From positions 1-9,450 of the IMG/VR virus record IMGVR_UViG_2711768034_000006: a stretch of DNA of 9,450 bases, one strand, 5' to 3'. Shown one piece after another: positions 1-9,450 of the stretch (its first letter is position 1; every line of letters begins with the position of its first letter). Made by a program: the position numbers and the translations under genes. The DNA is from a virus. Lineage: Duplodnaviria; Heunggongvirae; Uroviricota; Caudoviricetes. The notes beneath the pieces are model-generated. The model made no database searches. It was not told the DNA's origin and saw only the letters and a list, made by a program, of their open reading frames with translations.

Positions 1-3
1 ACG

Positions 4-228
4 TTACGGGCTGGCAAACGGCACGATTTCGGCTGATGCCACCTCCCTGGTGCGATAACTACACAGCAGGTTCCGCCCTAGCTTGACCAGTTCCTGCTGC
101 ACGCCTGGCAGCCGGTCGCGAGCATGGTCTACCGCTTCCTGTTCAGTGGCGAAACCCTCCATAATTTCGGTTTCGGTGTAGGTGCCGTGTTCCGGGTCAA
201 AAGCAATGATATATGCGCGATAACTCAT
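4..228 (-). CDS. Hypothetical small protein (74 aa), last gene of primase operon
   Basis: ATG at 228 preceded by GAGGG Shine-Dalgarno about 8 nt upstream; 10 nt after primase stop; followed (via wrap) by intrinsic terminator; no family recognised. Confidence 0.55.
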   Translation of the reverse strand: MSYRAYIIAFDPEHGTYTETEIMEGFATEQEAVDHARDRLPGVQQELVKLGRNLLCSYRTREVASAEIVPFASP

Positions 229-238
229 GGTTTAGCCC

Positions 239-2554
239 TCAGAACGGTTTATCTTCGCCGTCACCGGCTGTTTCTGTCATCACTTCCTGTGCGTCACACA
301 GGGGCGGCATACCTGCACGCGCCATCTGCGCTTCACGTGACTGCGATTTGCCGTCAGCGTTCAGCCATTTGGCCTTATTGCGCAGAATCCAGCAGCGGCT
401 TGCCTTGCCGTGAACCTTAATCGGCCCATCAATTTGCAGCGCGCCAGCTTCTTCCATTGCGCGGCGCATGGCAGGTGTGAAGCGGCTTTCTTCACCGTCT
501 GACAGCACATTTGCAATGTCACCTTGCGTGATAACGTCAACCGGCCATGACAGCACCAGGCGGTCAGCGTTCTTCTGCGTCATCGACTTCGCAGCGCCAA
601 TCACTGACTGTTTGGCCGCGTTCATCGGCGGGCGTTCGCCAGGGTTAAAGCTGCTTATGTCGCGCTCCGCCAGGAACACAGCCACAGCGTTGATAAACTC
701 GCGGTCGTTCAGCGCAGCATAGAGCGTGGCGTAAACTTCCTGCGGGCGCGGCTCTGCTTCGTGATGCACGATGCGCCAGCGGCGGTCTGTGTCGTCAATC
801 GGCAGCGCGTTAAGGTGGTTACTGAACACCAGCCAGCGCATGGCGTTGTGTTCACGGTGCTGGCGGCCATACTTCGGGTTCACGTCACGATATTCAGCCG
901 TAACGATGCTGCGCAGTTTGTTGGTGTGACTGTAGCGGTTTTCGCTCACCCCGGCCTGAATCTCGTCAACGATGGCCAGAACGCGCCCAGCTAACTGGCC
1001 GTTGAACTGGCTATCAAGCAGGTTAGGCAGGTCCACGTTCGGTGCCACATAGCCACGCCATACGCGCGCCAGGACGCTGGCCAGCCAGTTGCGGCCTGTG
1101 CCGGTTTTGTTGGCCACGTGCAGCCAGCCATAGTGCGGAAGTTCGCCTGGCTTCTGCTCCAGGTGTGCCAGCCAATCCAGGAATTTTTCGCGCTCTATGG
1201 CATCCGGGAATAGGTAGGCTACATGGTCCAGAAACAGGCTGATGCCTGTCGTGGCTTCTTTGCGTTCGAGCGGTCGCCAGGTGTTGATTGCAGGGCGTCC
1301 ATCCGGGTCACGGCAGAAGATGCCCGCGCCAGGGTGGAATGTCCGAGTGATAACCGTTTTGCGCTGCGGGTCTTGTTGCCACAGAACGGCGGTAGGCACC
1401 GGCTTTTTGCGCTCGTCGCTCAGTGTCATTGACGCTGACGTAAGCTGGCGGAATTCCTTCCAGGTCATAAACATTGTTGTGTCATTGACGCTGGCCACCA
1501 TTTCACCGCTTGCGATCCACACCATAGATTCCAGCATTTCTTCGCGGGACATCGACGGCGGCAGGATGCTGACTGTTTCCGGCTGTTGCAGGCGGGCGTT
1601 TTCTTCCTGCTGCAAACGGCGGCGGGTTTCTTCCGCCACGTCAACCACGCCACCAGCGCGCGCATTGTTAAGCGCAGCCAGGACCGCATCAGCACCTTGC
1701 TCCTGGTGCAAATCATTAACATCTTTGCCTTCTGCCAGGTCGGACGGCAGGGTGGCAACCGCAAAGCCAGTGCGGAAAGCGTCAGATTCTTTGCCACGGT
1801 CAGGGACTATGACCGGAACAGCACCAGCGGCCTTGATGATGTCGGCAGCCTTGCGGATGTTGCCAGCACCAAAGGAAACCACGGCAGCGCAGCCGGTGAC
1901 GGCGTTCACGCTCCAGGCGTGGCCGATACCTTCCACGATGTAGGCTTTCTGGCCTTTCTCCAGCTTTCCAGCCGTAAATGTGCCATCCATAGGGCAGCCA
2001 CTGGCGTTGCGCTTCTCTCCTTTGTTTGGCCCTACGAACTGTAAGGAAACCAGGTTTCCGCTTGATGACCAAACAGGGATTGCCAGCCAGCCTTTCAGGC
2101 TTTTGCTTCCGCTCCTGATGTCCTGCGTAACAACGCGCAGGCCGTCAGGCTTGCCCCACTTGCGCATGATGTACGGGTGTTCAGCGGTCGCAGGTTCTGA
2201 CGCAGCCCAAATGTCAATCGGGTTGTGTTTGGCTTTTGGCTTCTCAATAGGTGCCTTTTCCGCCCTGGCTGTTGGGTCATTCCACTGCGCCACGTTACGC
2301 GCCAGCCAGAACAGCGTGTTTTCAGTCACCGAACCGTCAATCTTAAAGCTACCCCAGGCGGAACGCACATCCGCTTCATTGCGGTAGTTGGTTGCGCCCT
2401 GGCTCCAGTTATGGAAGTCATCGAATGACAGGCCAGCAGCCTTTGCAGCGCAGCCAATGCGTGCCCAATCACGGCGTGAACAGTCGTTCGGCAGGGATTC
2501 CAGGGCGCTAAGTGCGCGCTCCATGTTGGTGATTTGGTCGTATGCCAGACTCAT
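239..2554 (-). CDS. Primase / SF3 helicase, phage P4 alpha-like replication initiator (771 aa)
   Basis: Long ORF; N-terminal Trp-rich region; DnaG/Toprim-like EGxxxA motif (IVEGIGHAW, aa 206-214); helicase-like region with Walker B-like LAIVDEIQ (aa 524-531) and SF3 motif C-like LVFSNH (aa 575-580); ATGA start/stop overlap with upstream orf77; GGGGG Shine-Dalgarno. Confidence 0.85.
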   Translation of the reverse strand: MSLAYDQITNMERALSALESLPNDCSRRDWARIGCAAKAAGLSFDDFHNWSQGATNYRNEADVRSAWGSFKIDGSVTENTLFWLARNVAQWNDPTARAEKAPIEKPKAKHNPIDIWAASEPATAEHPYIMRKWGKPDGLRVVTQDIRSGSKSLKGWLAIPVWSSSGNLVSLQFVGPNKGEKRNASGCPMDGTFTAGKLEKGQKAYIVEGIGHAWSVNAVTGCAAVVSFGAGNIRKAADIIKAAGAVPVIVPDRGKESDAFRTGFAVATLPSDLAEGKDVNDLHQEQGADAVLAALNNARAGGVVDVAEETRRRLQQEENARLQQPETVSILPPSMSREEMLESMVWIASGEMVASVNDTTMFMTWKEFRQLTSASMTLSDERKKPVPTAVLWQQDPQRKTVITRTFHPGAGIFCRDPDGRPAINTWRPLERKEATTGISLFLDHVAYLFPDAIEREKFLDWLAHLEQKPGELPHYGWLHVANKTGTGRNWLASVLARVWRGYVAPNVDLPNLLDSQFNGQLAGRVLAIVDEIQAGVSENRYSHTNKLRSIVTAEYRDVNPKYGRQHREHNAMRWLVFSNHLNALPIDDTDRRWRIVHHEAEPRPQEVYATLYAALNDREFINAVAVFLAERDISSFNPGERPPMNAAKQSVIGAAKSMTQKNADRLVLSWPVDVITQGDIANVLSDGEESRFTPAMRRAMEEAGALQIDGPIKVHGKASRCWILRNKAKWLNADGKSQSREAQMARAGMPPLCDAQEVMTETAGDGEDKPF

Positions 2555-2784
2555 GCCGCACCCCCTGCCTTGCGCTGCATATCCAGCGCCATTTGCCAGG
2601 CGTCCACGCGGTTGAACGGGAAGCGGGTGTTCTCTGCCAGGTGCCCCAGGTAGATGGAATATTGCAGCGGGCGGCCAGACTGGATGGCCTGCTTAATCAG
2701 TTCCTGCATGATGGCCACGCACTGTGCGTGCGTCTGGCTGGTAGCAGGTTCGCGCATAAGGCGATGCAGGGTGATGATGCTCAT
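2551..2784 (-). CDS. Hypothetical small protein (77 aa), tandem paralog of orf91
   Basis: ATGA overlaps at both ends (2781-2784 and 2551-2554); GGGGGTGCG motif just upstream of ATG; shares DAW motif and AGGA C-terminus with orf91. Confidence 0.55.
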   Translation of the reverse strand: MSIITLHRLMREPATSQTHAQCVAIMQELIKQAIQSGRPLQYSIYLGHLAENTRFPFNRVDAWQMALDMQRKAGGAA

Positions 2785-3056
2785 TTCGCACCCCCGGCAA
2801 TCTGCGCCAGGACGGTGGCCACTTCGCGTTCCGCCAGTTGTTCAGCGTAGGCGTGCGCAGTGATGCGCCAGGCGTCATCTTTGTTCAGGCGGTAGGCTTT
2901 GTTCCCGCGCATTACAATGCGGTAGGTTGCTTCCGCTGTGTCGGTGATGCTTGAACCGTTGCGCAGCATAGCGTCAGCGAATTTGAACGCAGCATCACAG
3001 CGAGTTTCAACGGTTCTGGTTTTCAGGATGGCGTCAGCCAGGTCGTGCAATTTCAT
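2781..3056 (-). CDS. Hypothetical small protein (91 aa), first gene of primase operon
   Basis: ATG at 3056 with GAGGAA Shine-Dalgarno about 8 nt upstream; translationally coupled to orf77; no family recognised. Confidence 0.55.
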   Translation of the reverse strand: MKLHDLADAILKTRTVETRCDAAFKFADAMLRNGSSITDTAEATYRIVMRGNKAYRLNKDDAWRITAHAYAEQLAEREVATVLAQIAGGAK

Positions 3057-3064
3057 TTCGCATT

Positions 3065-3083
3065 CCTCAATATTTCGTTGAGG
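3065..3083. promoter_or_regulatory. Perfect inverted repeat CCTCAA-N7-TTGAGG overlapping the orf91 ribosome-binding site
   Basis: Read directly; on the mRNA the GAGG Shine-Dalgarno lies inside the potential stem. Confidence 0.35.
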
Positions 3084-3122
3084 CTGCGCTAAAATCGGTG
3101 GCTCAATGAAGGGGGGTTTAAC

Positions 3123-3151
3123 TTGCTAAAGGTAAAGGTCTTTGCTAGTAT
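3123..3151 (+). promoter_or_regulatory. Candidate sigma70-like promoter on plus strand (TTGCTA-17-TAGTAT), antisense to operon leader
   Basis: Hexamers with 17-nt spacer read from sequence; 4/6 match each to consensus; lies about 40 nt upstream of a plus-strand terminator-like hairpin. Confidence 0.25.
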
Positions 3152-3188
3152 TTTTCCTAGTCAGGCCGCTAACCTAGACTTTCATTAA

Positions 3189-3229
3189 GCCCCCTGGATT
3201 GTTCGCGCAGTCCGGGGGTTTTCCTTTTT
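3189..3229 (+). terminator. Plus-strand intrinsic terminator-like hairpin (CCCCC..GGGGG stem) followed by TTTTCCTTTTT
   Basis: Five consecutive G-C pairs (3190-3194 with 3214-3218) then T-rich tract 3219-3229; no plus-strand CDS upstream, so it would end a short antisense RNA. Confidence 0.35.
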
Positions 3230-3252
3230 GTGGCGGTGTGCAAGCGCCACAA
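3228..3252. promoter_or_regulatory. Perfect 8-bp inverted repeat TTGTGGCG-N9-CGCCACAA at predicted transcription start of primase operon (operator candidate)
   Basis: Read directly; lies immediately downstream of the candidate -10 element; related ATTGTGGC motif recurs at 8163-8170 upstream of operon 2. Confidence 0.35.
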
Positions 3253-3257
3253 TTCGA

Positions 3258-3285
3258 ATGATACCCTGCAATCCGGTTTCTGCAA
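3258..3285 (-). promoter_or_regulatory. Candidate sigma70 promoter for orf91-orf77-primase-orf74 operon (TTGCAG-16-TATCAT on minus strand)
   Basis: -35 at 3285..3280, -10 at 3263..3258; about 200-nt leader to orf91 start. Confidence 0.35.
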
Positions 3286-3354
3286 GCTATTTTGCCAAAA
3301 TATAGGCCGAAAATTCATAAATAATTTCAGGCATTTAAAAAGGTAAATGTCGCT

Positions 3355-3384
3355 CATAATCCCACATAATCCGGCATAATCGGT
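3355..3384. repeat. Three direct repeats of CATAATC at exact 10-bp spacing (3355, 3365, 3375)
   Basis: CATAATCCCA / CATAATCCGG / CATAATCGGT read directly; helical phasing suggests a protein-binding array; near-identical array at 8220-8249. Confidence 0.5.
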
Positions 3385-3402
3385 TAATAAATGCTAACCA
3401 TA

Positions 3403-3431
3403 AAAAAAAGCCAGAGTTTTCACCCAGGCTT
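3403..3431 (-). terminator. Candidate intrinsic terminator downstream of tape-measure gene
   Basis: Minus-strand RNA forms an imperfect GC stem (3430..3411) followed by eight U (plus-strand A8 at 3403-3410), about 27 nt after TMP stop. Confidence 0.4.
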
Positions 3432-3457: not shown

Positions 3458-5734
3458 TTACGGTGCTGCTAATCCGTCATTCATCATGCTACGATTTCGG
3501 ATTCCTTGCTGCTGTTTCAGCTTCTGCGCCACCTTATTTGCCAGCGCATCTTCATTCATGCCAGGCTCGGCCTTCACGTTGATGGTGTACTGGTCGTTCG
3601 TGTTCACCGTTGTGTTGCCGGTGCGGTTAGCCAGTGCCGGTGAAGGCAAGGACGCACCAGGGGCGGCGGTCGCTGCTGGCTGGCTGCTTTCGTCTTCACC
3701 GAACGGATTGCTAAAGAAATCTTTGGTTTTCTGCCACGCACCACCAGCAACATCAGACACGGCGTTTTTAAACTCCAGTGCCTTGTTGGTCAGGTTGCCG
3801 ATGTTGTCAGACACCCACAGAATCTTATCAATCAGGAACGTGATCGGTGCGGTCACAAGCTCGATGCCAGCCGCCAGGGTCTTACCGAACGTCATCCCCA
3901 TTTTACCGGCCTTATCCAGTTCCTCGCCGCTGTATTTGACCGGTTCGGTCAGTGACGTGAACCAGTTGAAAACCGTCTTAACCGCAGCACCCACACCATC
4001 AATGACAGGTTTCAGCGGCCCCATGCGTTCATAAAGGCGGCTCAGAGCTTCGCTAAGCGGTTCCAGCCCGGATTTGATGCCTTCACCCACTCCGCCAAAG
4101 AAAGCCTTCACACCGGCCCAATGGCGGTAAATCTGATAACCTGCCAGCGCCAGGCCAGCTACGGCAGCACCCACGCCAGTGGATATGAACGCCGCACCAA
4201 CGGCACGAATGCCGGTAGCCACCGCAGGCAGGCCACGGGTGCTGGCCAGAACGGCAGATGCGTTCATGCGGGCAAACAGGCTGGACATCTGCAACACGCC
4301 ACCTTTCAGGAACGTGAACGCAAAGCCAGCGGCGAACGTCGCCACACGTAGTGCCACCAGTGCACTGGAACCAATAACCACTGCTTTGGTCACGGTAGGG
4401 TATTCGCGCGCCAGTTCGGCAACCTTGCCGATAACCGGGCCAACGGTAGCCAGAACGCCGTTGAATGCTGGCAGCAGCACTGTGCCGATCGTGACGCCCA
4501 GGTTAGACACACGGTTGTTGAAAATCTTAAGCTGTGCCGACGTTTTGGCGGTGGCTGCCTCATATTCAGCCTGCATAGAACCGGCATATTTGGTCTTGTC
4601 TTTGACCATGTCCAGATTCTTTTGGTACGTATCAAGCTGTGTCAGCATTGGTGCGATAGCGCCAATCGATTCCTTACCAAACAGTTGCGAAAGCGTTGCC
4701 GCCTGCATGTGTTTTGGCAGCTTGCTGATCTTGGACAGGATGACGCGGATTGTTTCATCGGCGTTCAGTTGCATTGATTTTGCAACCTGCTTGGATGTGA
4801 AGCCAAGCTGTTTAAACGCTTCACGCTGTGACTTCGTGGCGGATGCGCCAGCGGTCAGGGATAGCAGCAGGTTTTTAATACCGGTGGCCGCAATCTCATT
4901 CTGCACGCCCATACCGCGCAGCGTTGCACCCATCGCAGCGATAGAACCGGAAGCTGCACCAGCGACGCTGCCAAGCGGCCCGATGCGCTGCGTGATTTCC
5001 AGGATGTCTTTGGCTGATGCGGCGGTGTTGTTGCCCAGGTAGTTGATCTTGTCAGCCAGAACGTTCATCTGGTCCTGCGTCATCCCGAAGGCGGCGCGCA
5101 TCTCTGCCATTGCCTGGCCTGCCTGGTCGGCGCTGACGTCAAAAGCCACACCCATTTTGATGGCCGATTCAGCAAACTTGGTTAGTTCGCTGGTGGCGAT
5201 GCCTGATTGAGCACCAGCGGCAACAATCTTGCCGATTTCGTTGGCTGCCATCGGCATTTTGGTTGACATATCCTGGATAGCCTGGCCCATCTTAACCAGG
5301 CCGTCAGGGGTTTCGAAGTTGGCAACCTTGCGGATATCTGCCAGCGTATCTTCAAAATCCATAGCCTGTTTGATCGGTACAGCTACCGTTGCGCCAAGTG
5401 CGACAGTCCCCAGGATTCCTTCTTTGTAGCCTTGACGCTTCGCCAGGTTGCGTTCGCGGGCATCCTCCACGCGTTTCAGGCGTTCGGTGGCAGAACGAAG
5501 GCGTTCAACCTGCCCGACAACCGTTTGATAGCGGTCCTTCATGCGGGAGAATATCGCGCTATCCTGGCCATAACGCTTCATTGCTTCATTTAACTGGCGC
5601 TGTTCGCGCGACAGCTTAGAGATTGCGCTACCAATCTCGACGGTATTTTTCTTTACAGTTCCAAATGCACCACGAAGGCTGCCGGAAACGGCCCCACCAA
5701 TCGTGATTTTTGCATTTAACTTCTTGTTGGCCAT
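3458..5734 (-). CDS. Phage tail tape-measure protein-like (758 aa)
   Basis: Coiled-coil, A/G/Q-rich N-terminal half typical of tape-measure core regions; long central hydrophobic Gly/Ala-rich segment (about aa 440-540); size typical of siphovirus tape-measure proteins; ATG at 5734. Confidence 0.75.
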   Translation of the reverse strand: MANKKLNAKITIGGAVSGSLRGAFGTVKKNTVEIGSAISKLSREQRQLNEAMKRYGQDSAIFSRMKDRYQTVVGQVERLRSATERLKRVEDARERNLAKRQGYKEGILGTVALGATVAVPIKQAMDFEDTLADIRKVANFETPDGLVKMGQAIQDMSTKMPMAANEIGKIVAAGAQSGIATSELTKFAESAIKMGVAFDVSADQAGQAMAEMRAAFGMTQDQMNVLADKINYLGNNTAASAKDILEITQRIGPLGSVAGAASGSIAAMGATLRGMGVQNEIAATGIKNLLLSLTAGASATKSQREAFKQLGFTSKQVAKSMQLNADETIRVILSKISKLPKHMQAATLSQLFGKESIGAIAPMLTQLDTYQKNLDMVKDKTKYAGSMQAEYEAATAKTSAQLKIFNNRVSNLGVTIGTVLLPAFNGVLATVGPVIGKVAELAREYPTVTKAVVIGSSALVALRVATFAAGFAFTFLKGGVLQMSSLFARMNASAVLASTRGLPAVATGIRAVGAAFISTGVGAAVAGLALAGYQIYRHWAGVKAFFGGVGEGIKSGLEPLSEALSRLYERMGPLKPVIDGVGAAVKTVFNWFTSLTEPVKYSGEELDKAGKMGMTFGKTLAAGIELVTAPITFLIDKILWVSDNIGNLTNKALEFKNAVSDVAGGAWQKTKDFFSNPFGEDESSQPAATAAPGASLPSPALANRTGNTTVNTNDQYTINVKAEPGMNEDALANKVAQKLKQQQGIRNRSMMNDGLAAP

Positions 5735-8085: not shown

Positions 8086-8219
8086 TAAAAATGCTCCGGT
8101 TGTTGTGCAATAAATCGTCTGGAATGACTTAAAGATATACAGTAACCAGACCGAACACAATAGCCACAATGTGAGCTTTTTAATGTAAAATCAGTAACTT
8201 ATAACCCTGAATACTTGCA

Positions 8220-8249
8220 AATAACCAGGCATAATCCGGCGTAATCGAT
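8220..8249. repeat. Second copy of the phased 10-bp repeat array (AATAACCAGG / CATAATCCGG / CGTAATCGAT) upstream of operon 2
   Basis: Shares the 17-mer CATAATCCGGC[A/G]TAATCG with 3365-3381. Confidence 0.45.
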
Positions 8250-8570: not shown

Positions 8571-9065
8571 TAATCTGACATATTCCGCGCGCTTTCAGCC
8601 CGTATTCACTCAGGCTTATTGTTGCGATATGTGCAACGTTCTGGCTGTTTACTGAACAGCTACTGTTTGAACGCAAAACAAGGCTGAAAGGCTCGTTTCC
8701 TGTAGTTACATCATACTTCTGTATGTTGTACCTATTCCGGCTGCTGCTTTGGTTAGACGTGAAAAAGCGTGGTTACGAATGAGCGGACCACCACCAGCAC
8801 CCATGCCGCCCAGGCACCCCATCCGGTTACAACGCTGAATTGAGTTGTAACCGTGTTATGTTTCTGAAAAATAACAAATTTCGTGCAATCGGTTACAACG
8901 GTTACGCCAAGTTCATAAAGTTTGGAAAAAGCACTATGGGTATATAGGAATATACGAATTTCTTTTTTTTACTAATCTGTTGTAACCATTGTAACCGGAA
9001 TGGGTAAAATCATTAATATTCAGTGGCTTGCGTGGTTACAACGCCGGTTACAACACCGATTTTGC

Positions 9066-9092
9066 GTTGTAACCGTTGTAACCGTTGTAACC
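9066..9092. repeat. Three perfect tandem copies of GTTGTAACC
   Basis: Read directly. Confidence 0.9.
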
Positions 9093-9103
9093 GTAGTAGG
9101 CAT

Positions 9104-9129
9104 AAAAAAGCCCCGGCAGATGCCAGGGC
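9104..9129 (-). terminator. Intrinsic terminator ending the primase operon
   Basis: Minus-strand RNA GCCCUGGC-AUCU-GCCGGGGC (8-bp stem with one G-U, 4-nt loop) followed by UUUUUU, 25 nt after orf74 stop. Confidence 0.55.
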
Positions 9130-9151: not shown

Positions 9152-9450
9152 ACGTTACGGGCTGGCAAACGGCACGATTTCGGCTGATGCCACCTCCCTG
9201 GTGCGATAACTACACAGCAGGTTCCGCCCTAGCTTGACCAGTTCCTGCTGCACGCCTGGCAGCCGGTCGCGAGCATGGTCTACCGCTTCCTGTTCAGTGG
9301 CGAAACCCTCCATAATTTCGGTTTCGGTGTAGGTGCCGTGTTCCGGGTCAAAAGCAATGATATATGCGCGATAACTCATGGTTTAGCCCTCAGAACGGTT
9401 TATCTTCGCCGTCACCGGCTGTTTCTGTCATCACTTCCTGTGCGTCACAC
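9152..9450. repeat. Wrap-around duplicate of window positions 1-299
   Basis: Identical sequence; the ORF track lists the same 74-aa protein at 4..228 and 9155..9379. Confidence 0.9.
9155..9379 (-). CDS. Second copy of the 74-aa hypothetical protein (same locus as 4..228 via wrap-around)
   Basis: Identical translation in ORF track. Confidence 0.55.
   Translation of the reverse strand: MSYRAYIIAFDPEHGTYTETEIMEGFATEQEAVDHARDRLPGVQQELVKLGRNLLCSYRTREVASAEIVPFASP

What the first reader, a model, noticed from the sequence alone, without database searches (positions are those of the whole stretch)
3065..3083. Inverted repeat sequestering the orf91 Shine-Dalgarno
CCTCAA-N7-TTGAGG is a perfect 6-bp inverted repeat whose mRNA stem would contain the GAGG of the orf91 ribosome-binding site, 8 nt before the ATG. 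This could gate translation of the whole replication operon, or serve as a repressor operator.
Basis: seen in the sequence. Interest (0 to 1): 0.4.

Follow-up and report, generated by a model that had tools for sequence, protein, structure and literature searches.

The report
Ribosome-site hairpin in plasmid replication leader
The 6-bp inverted repeat is real and would fold the ribosome-binding site of the first replication gene into a small hairpin, but on its own it is statistically ordinary and only partly conserved, and the better-supported regulator nearby is a predicted, undescribed antisense RNA about 100 nt upstream.

Summary
The repeat CCTCAA-N7-TTGAGG sits exactly at 3065-3083. On the minus-strand mRNA its 3' arm holds GAGG, 8 nt before the ATG of a real 91-aa gene.

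It is not a statistical outlier. The 9151-bp circular element has 35 such repeats, against 22±5.6 in shuffles. The repeat is the tip (P3) of a three-part hairpin (3097-3048, -12.7 kcal/mol) that also pairs the AUG.

Comparative support is weak:
- the repeat is invariant only in near-identical plasmids;
- one 70%-identity relative (L002) loses 2 of the 6 pairs with no compensating change;
- there is one compensatory pair, in the outer stem;
- opening the ribosome site costs no more than for other genes of the element (p≈0.1 against shuffled flanks).

Even so, every lineage, including one with an unrelated ribosome-site sequence, keeps the site in a local hairpin of -12.5 to -16.6 kcal/mol.

I found no support for a repressor operator.

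The strongly conserved feature lies upstream (3115-3253): a structured leader and a predicted ~68-nt antisense RNA with its own promoter and terminator. It has three compensatory pairs and no Rfam match.

Best reading: the hairpin is a constitutive damper on translation of a coupled replication operon, and the antisense RNA supplies the copy-number control.

The parts
3065..3083 (-). The reported inverted repeat. On the mRNA it reads CCUCAA(3083-3078)-CGAAAUA-UUGAGG(3070-3065). It forms the apical helix P3 of the ribosome-site hairpin.
   Evidence: sequence.: -4.9 kcal/mol when folded alone; pairs 23-33 and 24-32 are broken in L002, and there is no compensatory change.
3048..3097 (-). Three-part ribosome-site hairpin. 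P1 = CGAUUUUA(3097-3090):UGAAAUUG(3055-3048), which covers U and G of the AUG and codons 2-3. P2 = CGCA(3088-3085):UGCG(3062-3059). P3 = the inverted repeat.
   Evidence: -12.7 kcal/mol, z -2.8; the hairpin is present in the full-leader MFE and in the RNAalifold consensus; 94% of cells paired, 1 compensatory pair (A3095-U3050 becomes G-C in L003), and 112/500 shuffles do as well.
3065..3068 (-). Shine-Dalgarno GAGG of orf91, 8 nt upstream of the AUG.
   Evidence: Invariant in the window, L002 and L003.
2781..3056 (-). orf91, the first cistron of the replication operon. It is a 4-helix protein of unknown function.
   Evidence: AlphaFold pLDDT 90.6. No PDB fold match below E 0.6. No Pfam or PHROG hit.
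2551..2784 (-). orf77, the second cistron. Its ATG overlaps the orf91 stop (ATGA).
   Evidence: 34% identical to orf97 of the L005 lineage.
239..2554 (-). Primase-helicase (PriCT_2 + Toprim + DUF5906), the third cistron. Its ATG overlaps the orf77 stop (ATGA).
3258..3285 (-). Predicted leader promoter TTGCAG-N16-TATCAT. The inferred start is near A3253, which gives a 197-nt leader.
   Evidence: Hexamers read. They are conserved in L002, L003 and L005. Leader length is 195-198 nt in all lineages. The site falls below the scan tool's threshold. No transcript data.
3228..3252 (-). H1, a stem-loop at the 5' end of the leader (UUGUGGCG...CGCCACAA).
   Evidence: In L005 the apical part is replaced by AGGG-GAAA-CCCU while the hairpin is kept.
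3159..3229 (+). Predicted ~68-71-nt antisense RNA. It has a 5' stem-loop (3159-3180, loop CCGCUAA 3166-3172), a spacer, then an intrinsic terminator hairpin (3190-3218) with a U-tract (3219-3229).
   Evidence: Terminator scan. Folds. The covariance model finds the L005 copy at E 1.6e-6 to 5.2e-6 on the expected strand. 98.6% of cells paired, 3 compensatory pairs, 9/500 shuffles as good. The terminator hairpin is 5-7 kcal/mol more stable on the + strand in all 4 lineages. No Rfam match.
3123..3151 (+). Predicted promoter of the antisense RNA: TTGCTA (3123-3128), 17 nt, then the extended -10 TGcTAGTAT (3143-3151).
   Evidence: Sequence. Kept in all lineages, with TTGCGG-17-TGCTAGTAT in L005. The block is 91-93% identical in L002/L003 and 73% in L005, the highest of any segment in the L005 comparison.
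3181..3191 (-). 5' strand (GGCUUAAUGAA) of a predicted long-range helix. It lies inside the antisense RNA target.
   Evidence: Column pairs 74-158 and 78-154 change A-U to G-C in L002 and/or L003.
3100..3110 (-). 3' strand (UUCAUUGAGCC) of the long-range helix, ending 3 nt upstream of the ribosome-site hairpin.
3401..3430 (-). Intrinsic terminator after the tape-measure gene. It separates that operon from the replication operon.
   Evidence: a hairpin plus U7-8 in the window, L002 and L003, and a different hairpin plus U-rich tail in L005.

Best explanation
The inverted repeat is the apical helix (P3) of a local three-part hairpin (3097-3048, minus strand). The hairpin lies at the 3' end of a ~197-nt structured leader of the orf91-orf77-primase mRNA. 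The host is a 9.15-kb circular plasmid that looks like a phage satellite.

An anti-SD (CCUC) pairs with the SD (GAGG). P1 and P2 pair U and G of the AUG and codons 2-3.

The hairpin most likely acts as a constitutive damper of translation initiation at orf91. Because the three cistrons overlap by ATGA, it should also hold primase-helicase synthesis low.

The variable, copy-number-sensing input is probably not the repeat. It is more likely a ~68-nt antisense RNA (3159-3229, plus strand) that pairs with the leader 100-170 nt upstream of the AUG.

Shown by computation: the sequence, the predicted folds, and the conservation and covariation patterns. Inferred: both promoters and transcripts, that the hairpin forms in vivo, translational coupling, and any regulatory effect.
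For: - The stem contains the SD, and the extended hairpin contains the AUG: -12.7 kcal/mol, z -2.8. It appears in the full-leader MFE and centroid, with P(SD unpaired) = 0.01.
- The property persists where the sequence differs. Local ribosome-site hairpins are -12.5 (L002), -12.6 (L003) and -15.5 (L107) kcal/mol. The unrelated ribosome-site sequence of L005 gives -16.6. Z-scores range from -1.85 to -4.6.
- In L003 one P1 pair changes A-U to G-C through a synonymous UUG-to-CUG change, and there are two one-sided conservative changes.
- The 5' arm plus loop start, CCUCAACGAAA, is invariant in the window, L002 and L003, while its flanks vary.
- The ATGA overlaps orf91/orf77 and orf77/primase are confirmed.
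- Context fits a separate, regulated replication operon. There is a terminator after the upstream gene, conserved promoter-like hexamers, and a conserved antisense RNA architecture with covariation.
Against: - A 6-bp inverted repeat is common here: 35 copies in the element.
- P3 shows no covariation. L002 has UU changed to CC, which breaks 2 of 6 pairs without compensation.
- The whole-hairpin covariation test is not significant: 112/500 shuffles reach the observed score.
- Opening -14..+3 costs 9.95 kcal/mol, against 7.25±2.1 with shuffled flanks (p≈0.10). That is within the range of the other genes of the element, 3.8-13.0.
- In the full-leader fold L002 needs only 3.0 kcal/mol, against 8.0 for the window.
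- The 41-nt ribosome-site block diverges as fast as orf91 (71-76%, and 41% in L005), unlike the upstream core.
- There are no transcript, probing or reporter data.
Confidence: 0.45

Rival explanations
1. Chance palindrome. The SD GAGG happens to have a complementary hexamer 7 nt upstream. Any hairpin that forms is incidental, is not selected, and has no regulatory role.
For: The element has 35 comparable repeats, against 22±5.6 expected. The isolated stem is only -4.9 kcal/mol. L002 loses 2 pairs without compensation. Ribosome-site occlusion is not significantly above shuffled flanks: p 0.10, 0.27, 0.08 and 0.06 in four lineages. The block evolves as fast as the adjacent gene.
Against: All four lineages keep a local ribosome-site hairpin about 2 SD or more below shuffles, despite different pairings and, in L005, an unrelated sequence. 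There is one compensatory change in P1 through a synonymous codon change. The 11-nt stretch CCUCAACGAAA is invariant within a variable block.
Confidence: 0.3
2. The hairpin is the output domain of an antisense-RNA-responsive switch. Antisense binding at 3159-3229 strips the 5' strand of the long-range helix (3191-3181). The released 3' strand (3110-3100) sits next to the hairpin and re-pairs so that the SD and AUG become less accessible. The repeat is then part of dynamic copy-number control, in the manner of the structure that holds the rep SD in IncIalpha/IncB plasmids.
For: The long-range helix is predicted, with A-U to G-C compensatory changes in L002 and L003. Its 5' strand lies inside the antisense target, and its 3' strand ends 3 nt from P1. 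Simulated antisense binding lowers P(AUG unpaired) in all five sequences tested: 0.59 to 0.39, 0.86 to 0.42, 0.76 to 0.64, 0.70 to 0.53 and 0.52 to 0.43. In L002 the SD falls from 0.56 to 0.00.
Against: The predicted effects are small and rest on thermodynamics alone. In the window the SD is already fully paired in both states. No equivalent long-range helix could be aligned in L005. There is no leader peptide or pseudoknot of the IncI/IncB type (see the membership tests). In window-type sequences the antisense RNA shows no above-chance complementarity to the ribosome site (p 0.31-0.46).
Confidence: 0.15
3. DNA operator. The palindrome binds a dimeric repressor, encoded by the plasmid or a helper phage, that blocks transcription into the replication operon.
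For: The site is a perfect palindrome, 6-N7-6, just upstream of the first replication gene. Plasmids such as R1 (CopB) and pMV158 (CopG) do use repressors for rep genes (abstract of PMC5717011, listed).
Against: It is a single copy. No promoter-like site lies within about 190 bp (the conserved hexamers are at 3258-3285). The element has no recognisable DNA-binding protein. The orf91 model has no match to DNA-binding folds. L002 destroys the symmetry (CCTCAA...CCGAGG). The L005 lineage encodes an HTH_17 protein but lacks the palindrome.
Confidence: 0.04

Closest known systems
ColE2-type replicons (antisense RNA I against the 5' UTR of rep mRNA) and the related portable REx-C control modules of Pseudomonas plasmids (PMC5304414)
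   Same: A small antisense RNA is encoded in the untranslated leader of the initiator gene and is said to act post-transcriptionally. The conserved core is about 175-195 nt and holds three stem-loops, one of which serves as the antisense terminator and is flanked by A/T tracts. The module is found joined to different downstream replication genes. Here the leader is about 197 nt and carries H1-H3. H2 is the plus-strand terminator. The same leader is joined to orf91 or orf84, and to DUF5906-type or VapE-type primase-helicases.
   Different: I detected no sequence or Rfam relationship. The downstream genes are two small ORFs plus a P4-alpha-like primase-helicase, not a ColE2 Rep. The element also has GTTGTAACC iterons. 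Function is untested.
R1 (IncFII) CopA/CopT with the tap leader peptide, and the IncI2 antisense RNA with RepR
   Same: An antisense RNA binds the leader well upstream of the rep start. The rep ribosome site is poorly accessible, and expression depends on translational coupling. Here orf91, orf77 and the primase are coupled by ATGA overlaps.
   Different: No leader peptide overlaps or ends at the orf91 ribosome site. The only AUG mini-ORF (AUG AAA GUC UAG, 3185-3174) ends 118 nt upstream and is absent in L005.
IncIalpha/IncB (ColIb-P9, pMU720) Inc RNA/RNAI with the repY leader peptide, the stem-loop that sequesters the repZ SD, and an activating pseudoknot
   Same: The initiator's SD lies in a stem-loop downstream of an antisense RNA target loop (from my own knowledge; one search supports only the antisense RNA, the leader peptide and the pseudoknot). 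The target loop UUAGCGG resembles the UUGGCG-type hexanucleotide loops of that group (also from my own knowledge).
   Different: I found no pseudoknot complementarity between the target loop and the ribosome-site flank, and no leader peptide. Membership is therefore not met.
Generic SD-sequestering hairpins (translational operators; the de Smit and van Duin relation between hairpin stability and initiation rate)
   Same: An anti-SD pairs with the SD within a local hairpin of about -12 kcal/mol that also includes the start codon.
   Different: No ligand, protein or temperature input is evident. The stability is not distinguishable from that of other genes of the same element.
Satellite phage P4 (alpha primase-helicase; plasmid or integrated lifestyle)
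   Same: The primase-helicase is of the P4-alpha type, with PriCT_2, Toprim and a helicase domain. Relatives carry an integrase plus AlpA. The element is about 9-10 kb.
   Different: The element carries a full-length tape measure gene 59-60% identical to those of ~42-kb myoviruses. There is no match to the C4/CI RNA family or any other Rfam family. The leader is a different control region from P4's.

Membership tests
SD-sequestering translational hairpin | The stem includes the SD and/or the start codon of the regulated gene. | tested here: met
   GAGG lies in the 3' arm of P3, and U and G of the AUG lie in P1.
SD-sequestering translational hairpin | The element lies within the transcribed 5' UTR. 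| tested here: inconclusive
   Conserved promoter-like hexamers at 3258-3285 and a terminator after the upstream gene imply this. The scan tool found no promoter at its threshold, and there are no transcript data.
SD-sequestering translational hairpin | Stability or occlusion beyond what the local composition gives. | tested here: inconclusive
   Local MFE z-scores are -2.8 (window), -2.2, -1.85, -1.9 and -4.6. Opening energy against shuffled flanks gives p = 0.10, 0.27, 0.08 and 0.06, within the range of other genes.
SD-sequestering translational hairpin | Base pairs maintained in evolution (covariation). | tested here: inconclusive
   There is 1 compensatory pair in P1 and none in P3, and L002 breaks 2 P3 pairs. 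112/500 shuffles reach the observed score, from only 4 distinct sequences.
Plasmid antisense-RNA (countertranscript) control of rep expression | A small RNA gene on the strand opposite the rep leader, with its own promoter and intrinsic terminator. | tested here: met
   Met by prediction only. The promoter is TTGCTA-17-TGcTAGTAT and the terminator is 3190-3218 plus a U-tract. The terminator is more stable on the + strand in all lineages.
Plasmid antisense-RNA (countertranscript) control of rep expression | Stem-loop(s) with a conserved 5-8-nt recognition loop, often carrying a YUNR motif, and covarying stems. | tested here: met
   The 7-nt loop CCGCUAA (target UUAGCGG; CUAA and UUAG both fit YUNR) is invariant while the stems differ. 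There are 3 compensatory pairs, 98.6% of cells are paired, and 9/500 shuffles do as well. The alignment was fitted to the model, which favours the structure.
Plasmid antisense-RNA (countertranscript) control of rep expression | The antisense RNA lowers Rep synthesis or copy number and determines incompatibility. | not testable with these tools
   This needs Northern blots or RNA-seq, reporter fusions, and copy-number and incompatibility assays.
IncIalpha/IncB-type control (leader peptide + pseudoknot + SD stem-loop) | A leader-peptide ORF whose translation ends at or overlaps the rep ribosome-site hairpin. | tested here: not met
   The only AUG ORF in the leader has 3 codons (3185-3174) and ends 118 nt upstream. 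It is absent in L005. orf62 is not conserved as a coding sequence.
IncIalpha/IncB-type control (leader peptide + pseudoknot + SD stem-loop) | Complementarity between the antisense-target loop and sequence adjacent to the rep SD (the activating pseudoknot). | tested here: not met
   No complement of UUAGCGG lies near the ribosome site in window-type leaders (inspection). In L005 the ribosome site repeats the loop sequence rather than complementing it.
Palindromic repressor operator | The site overlaps or closely follows a promoter, a cognate DNA-binding protein is present, and half-sites are conserved or repeated. | tested here: not met
   No nearby promoter. No DNA-binding domain in the element. 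A single copy. The symmetry is lost in L002.
Any Rfam family | A covariance-model match. | tested here: not met
   There were 0 matches at E≤1 over the whole window, on both strands.

The most novel reading that the evidence does not exclude
The 400-nt intergenic region holds an undescribed, portable antisense-RNA copy-control module. It consists of a ~68-nt countertranscript and a ~197-nt leader with three hairpins and a long-range helix. The module lets a P4-like phage satellite that carries a tape measure gene live as an autonomous plasmid in E. coli, Salmonella and Proteus. On this reading, the ribosome-site hairpin containing the reported repeat is the output domain through which antisense binding is turned into translational repression of the coupled orf91-orf77-primase operon.
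Probability: 0.25. Interest if true: 0.55.

Novelty: new member of a known kind. Interest (0 to 1): 0.3.

Why it matters
On its own, a small hairpin at a ribosome-binding site is routine. Checking it showed that the ribosome site ends a conserved, unannotated control region in a little-studied family of ~9-kb plasmids found in enteric bacteria.

These plasmids look like episomal phage satellites. They carry a P4-type primase-helicase and a tape measure gene borrowed from ~42-kb myoviruses. Integrated relatives have an integrase plus AlpA where the plasmid has the leader and antisense module.

If the predicted antisense RNA and leader control copy number, they would explain how this satellite family switches between an integrated and a plasmid lifestyle. 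They would also add a new antisense control module, possibly to Rfam. The hairpin itself would then be the handle for testing how that control reaches translation.

Tried and rejected
1. Searches for relatives that found nothing useful.
- Megablast and blastn against the phage collection gave no match.
- Protein-seeded scans of genome and viral contigs with orf91 found nothing.
- A 16-nt motif scan of viral and genome contigs returned only chance hits, L010-L105 (confirmed by nhmmer).
- A 24-nt gapped motif scan of metagenome contigs found only one more close relative, L107.
- Comparative depth therefore stayed at four lineages.

2. orf62 (3169-3357, minus strand) as a real gene in the intergenic region. 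Rejected: most substitutions change the amino acid, and the ORF is absent in L005 and in RefSeq annotations.

3. orf91 as an autoregulatory DNA-binding protein. No Pfam or PHROG hit, and a confident 4-helix model has no PDB match.

4. A leader peptide or pseudoknot of the IncI/IncB kind. Not found.

5. Direct antisense pairing to the orf91 ribosome site. Not above chance in window-type sequences (p 0.31-0.46), although it is significant in L005 (p≈0.002).

6. An alternative anti-sequestor pairing of UUGAG (3106-3102) with CUCAA (3082-3078). Not conserved in L002 or L003, by inspection.

7. A transcription attenuator in the leader. No hairpin followed by a U-tract lies on the minus strand between 3150 and 3057.

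8. Literature on the named plasmids. Nine papers held one of the search terms. The three I opened all refer to pECQ4552_IHU08, a different plasmid of the same E. coli strain, and not to this element.

9. Strand assignment of H1 from wobble pairs. Ambiguous.

Full report
THE OBSERVATION

The plus strand at 3065-3083 reads CCTCAATATTTCGTTGAGG. This is a perfect 6-bp inverted repeat with a 7-nt spacer. All substantial ORFs of the window are on the minus strand, where the mRNA would read CCUCAACGAAAUAUUGAGGAAUGCGAAAUG. GAGG lies 8 nt before the ATG (3056-3054) of a 91-aa ORF (2781-3056).

The repeat is not unusual. The unique 9151 bp contain 35 perfect 6-bp inverted repeats with 3-10-nt loops, against 22.3±5.6 in dinucleotide shuffles. 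The repeat has no second copy, even allowing two mismatches. Folded alone, it is worth -4.9 kcal/mol.

WHAT THE WINDOW IS

Positions 1-299 repeat at 9152-9450, so the window is a circular 9151-bp element. Near-identical 8.9-9.3-kb "non-mobilizable" plasmids exist in E. coli, Salmonella and Proteus, and the element appears on hundreds of assembled contigs.

Read on the minus strand, the gene order is:
- a set of small ORFs with no family match;
- a 758-aa tape measure protein (3458-5734);
- a 400-nt intergenic region;
- orf91, orf77, and a 771-aa PriCT_2/Toprim/DUF5906 primase-helicase.

orf91/orf77 and orf77/primase overlap by ATGA, the usual layout for translational coupling.

The tape measure protein is 59-60% identical over its full length to those of ~42-kb myoviruses such as Escherichia phage vB_EcoM_ECO1230-10 and Salmonella phage PT1. 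L124, a 9.5-kb contig whose tape measure protein clusters with Klebsiella-annotated ones, has the same structural module. In place of the intergenic module it carries an integrase, AlpA and a VapE-type helicase. The window is therefore best read as the plasmid form of a P4-like satellite family.

THE HAIRPIN AROUND THE REPEAT

Folding shows the repeat as the tip of a larger hairpin:
- P1 = CGAUUUUA(3097-3090):UGAAAUUG(3055-3048);
- P2 = CGCA(3088-3085):UGCG(3062-3059);
- P3 = the repeat.

The hairpin has a free energy of -12.7 kcal/mol, with z = -2.8 against shuffles. It holds the SD, U and G of the AUG, and codons 2-3. In the full 197-nt leader the SD is predicted unpaired with probability 0.01.

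COMPARATIVE TEST

Only four lineages could be recovered.

- Window type: more than 15 nearly identical sequences. The repeat is invariant, and the only change is a C indel in the P2/P3 bulge.
- L003 (orf91 75% identical): keeps P3. Its P1 has one compensatory change, A-U to G-C through a synonymous UUG-to-CUG change, plus two conservative one-sided changes. One P2 pair is lost, and a shifted 4-bp P2 is possible.
- L002 (orf91 70% identical): UU changes to CC in the 3' arm. This breaks two of the six P3 pairs with no compensation. It also loses one P1 pair.
- L005 group (primase 87% identical; first gene orf84, barely similar to orf91): an unrelated ribosome-site sequence.

Formally, 94% of cells pair, one pair covaries, and 112 of 500 column shuffles do as well. 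That is no statistical support.

The energetic test is also weak. Opening -14..+3 costs 9.95 kcal/mol, against 7.25±2.1 when only the flanks are shuffled (p≈0.10). Other genes of the element range from 3.8 to 13.0.

Even so, every lineage places its ribosome site in a local hairpin of -12.5 to -16.6 kcal/mol, with z from -1.85 to -4.6. This includes L002, through a rearranged lower stem, and L005, through AGCCGC...GCGGCU. The 11 nt CCUCAACGAAA are invariant within an otherwise variable block. I read this as suggestive evidence that a structured ribosome site is maintained, but not as evidence for the particular 6-bp stem.

WHERE THE CONSERVATION REALLY IS

Segment identities show that the ribosome-site block (3057-3097) diverges like orf91: 71-76% in L002 and L003, and 41% in L005. 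By contrast, 3115-3253 is 91-99% identical in L002 and L003 and 63-73% in L005. The promoter block at 3115-3158 scores higher than any other segment in the L005 comparison, protein-coding ones included.

Within and around this conserved region I see the following features.

(a) An intrinsic terminator follows the tape measure gene in all lineages.

(b) Conserved promoter-like hexamers TTGCAG-16-TATCAT (3285-3258) give a leader of 195-198 nt in every lineage.

(c) There are three hairpins, H1-H3. Their stems differ between lineages while the H3 loop UUAGCGG stays invariant.

(d) The plus strand carries a conserved extended -10 promoter: TTGCTA, 17 nt, then TGcTAGTAT (3123-3151). It is followed by a 5' stem-loop (loop CCGCUAA), a spacer, and a hairpin with a U-tract that the terminator scan also finds.

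(e) This defines a ~68-71-nt antisense RNA (3159-3229). A covariance model built from the three window-type sequences finds the L005 copy on the expected strand at E≈1.6e-6 to 5.2e-6. On that alignment 98.6% of cells pair, three pairs covary, and only 9 of 500 shuffles match this. The alignment was fitted to the model, which favours the structure.

(f) The terminator hairpin is 5-7 kcal/mol more stable on the plus strand in all four lineages, because G·U pairs there become C·A mismatches on the other strand.

(g) Rfam has no match anywhere in the window.

(h) orf62, which gene callers place in this region, is probably spurious.

HOW THE PARTS MAY CONNECT

A long-range helix, 3191-3181 with 3110-3100, is predicted, with A-U to G-C compensations in L002 and L003. 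Its 5' strand lies within the antisense target. Its 3' strand ends 3 nt from P1.

I simulated antisense binding by forcing the target to stay unpaired. This lowers the predicted accessibility of the AUG in all five sequences tested, but only modestly. In the window the SD is already paired in both states.

I found no leader peptide ending at the hairpin and no pseudoknot partner, so the IncIalpha/IncB scheme does not apply. In window-type leaders the antisense RNA has no above-chance complementarity to the ribosome site (p 0.31-0.46). In L005 it does: -30.5 against -17.8±3.2 kcal/mol, p≈0.002, with a 9-nt GUUAGCGGC repeated between the SD and the AUG. The lineages may therefore differ in how the signal reaches the ribosome site.

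THE OPERATOR ALTERNATIVE

Nothing supports it.
- The palindrome is a single copy.
- No promoter lies nearby.
- The element has no recognisable DNA-binding protein.
- The orf91 model (pLDDT 90.6) is a 4-helix protein with no significant PDB match.
- L002 loses the symmetry.
- The lineage that does encode an HTH_17 protein lacks the palindrome.

COMPARISON WITH KNOWN SYSTEMS

The layout works like the antisense control of plasmid initiator genes.
- ColE2-type replicons have an antisense RNA complementary to the 5' UTR of rep mRNA that acts post-transcriptionally.
- The Pseudomonas REx-C modules have a conserved core of 175-194 nt with three stem-loops, one of which terminates the antisense RNA. 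They are exchanged among unrelated rep genes (PMC5304414).
- R1 and IncI2 use an antisense RNA plus leader-peptide coupling. IncI1 and IncB add a pseudoknot (PMC8053102).

Here too the same leader is joined to different first genes and to two helicase types.

Membership in any specific family is not established. There is no sequence or Rfam similarity, and the IncI/IncB hallmarks were tested and not met.

VERDICT

The 6-bp repeat itself is statistically ordinary and evolutionarily soft, and it is not an operator. The likely regulatory input lies upstream, in a predicted antisense RNA and leader module that has not been described.

Interest in the repeat itself is low to moderate (0.3). The surrounding module deserves follow-up.

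Noticed in passing
window 3115-3253, both strands (antisense RNA 3159-3229 +; promoter 3123-3151 +): This is a strongly conserved non-coding block. It encodes a predicted ~68-71-nt antisense RNA with an extended -10 promoter, a 5' stem-loop (loop CCGCUAA) and an intrinsic terminator, lying opposite the leader of the replication operon. It has three compensatory pairs across lineages and no Rfam match.
   Followed up: yes
window 1-299 = 9152-9450; whole window: The window is a circular 9151-bp element. Near-identical 8.9-9.3-kb plasmids occur in E. coli, Salmonella and Proteus. All substantial ORFs lie on one strand.
   Followed up: yes
window 3458-5734 (-); loci L121, L123, L124: The element carries a full-length tape measure gene 59-60% identical to those of ~42-kb myoviruses (ECO1230-10, Salmonella phage PT1). 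L124, whose tape measure protein clusters with Klebsiella-annotated ones, has the same structural module with an integrase, AlpA and a VapE helicase instead of the leader module. This suggests a family of P4-like satellites that supply their own tape measure.
   Followed up: partly
window 3355-3381 (-) and 8211-8247: GATTATG is repeated three times at 10-bp spacing upstream of the leader promoter, and four times in L116. A similar cluster lies 40-80 nt upstream of the 322-aa ORF. These may be regulator-binding sites in front of both operons.
   Followed up: no
window 8816-9105: There are multiple direct and inverted GTTGTAACC/GGTTACAAC repeats (iterons) in the gap between orf74 and the structural genes. 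This is a candidate replication origin.
   Followed up: no
L005:2412-2466 and L005:2292-2358: In the L005 lineage the 9-nt GUUAGCGGC of the antisense-target loop recurs between the SD and the AUG of the first gene. The antisense RNA is strongly complementary to that ribosome site (-30.5 against -17.8±3.2 kcal/mol, p≈0.002). Window-type leaders lack this.
   Followed up: partly
window 3181-3191 with 3100-3110 (-): A long-range helix is predicted that encloses H3 and the antisense promoter region. It has A-U to G-C compensatory changes in L002 and L003. Its 3' strand nearly copies the antisense RNA spacer.
   Followed up: partly
window 3169-3357 (-): Gene callers call a 62-aa ORF here in L002 and L003. 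It is probably spurious: most substitutions change the amino acid, it is absent in L005, and it overlaps the conserved RNA hairpins.
   Followed up: yes
loci L111-L120: The identical orf91, orf77 and leader are joined to two different primase-helicase types: 771 aa with DUF5906, and 762 aa with a VapE-like domain. L002 is a mosaic, with its tape measure end and orf77 98% identical to the window but orf91 only 77% (nucleotide identities). The replication region seems to exchange modules.
   Followed up: partly
window 3174-3185 (-): A three-codon mini-ORF, AUG AAA GUC UAG, is preceded by GGGGG and lies inside the antisense target. It is kept in L002 and L003 but absent in L005.
   Followed up: partly
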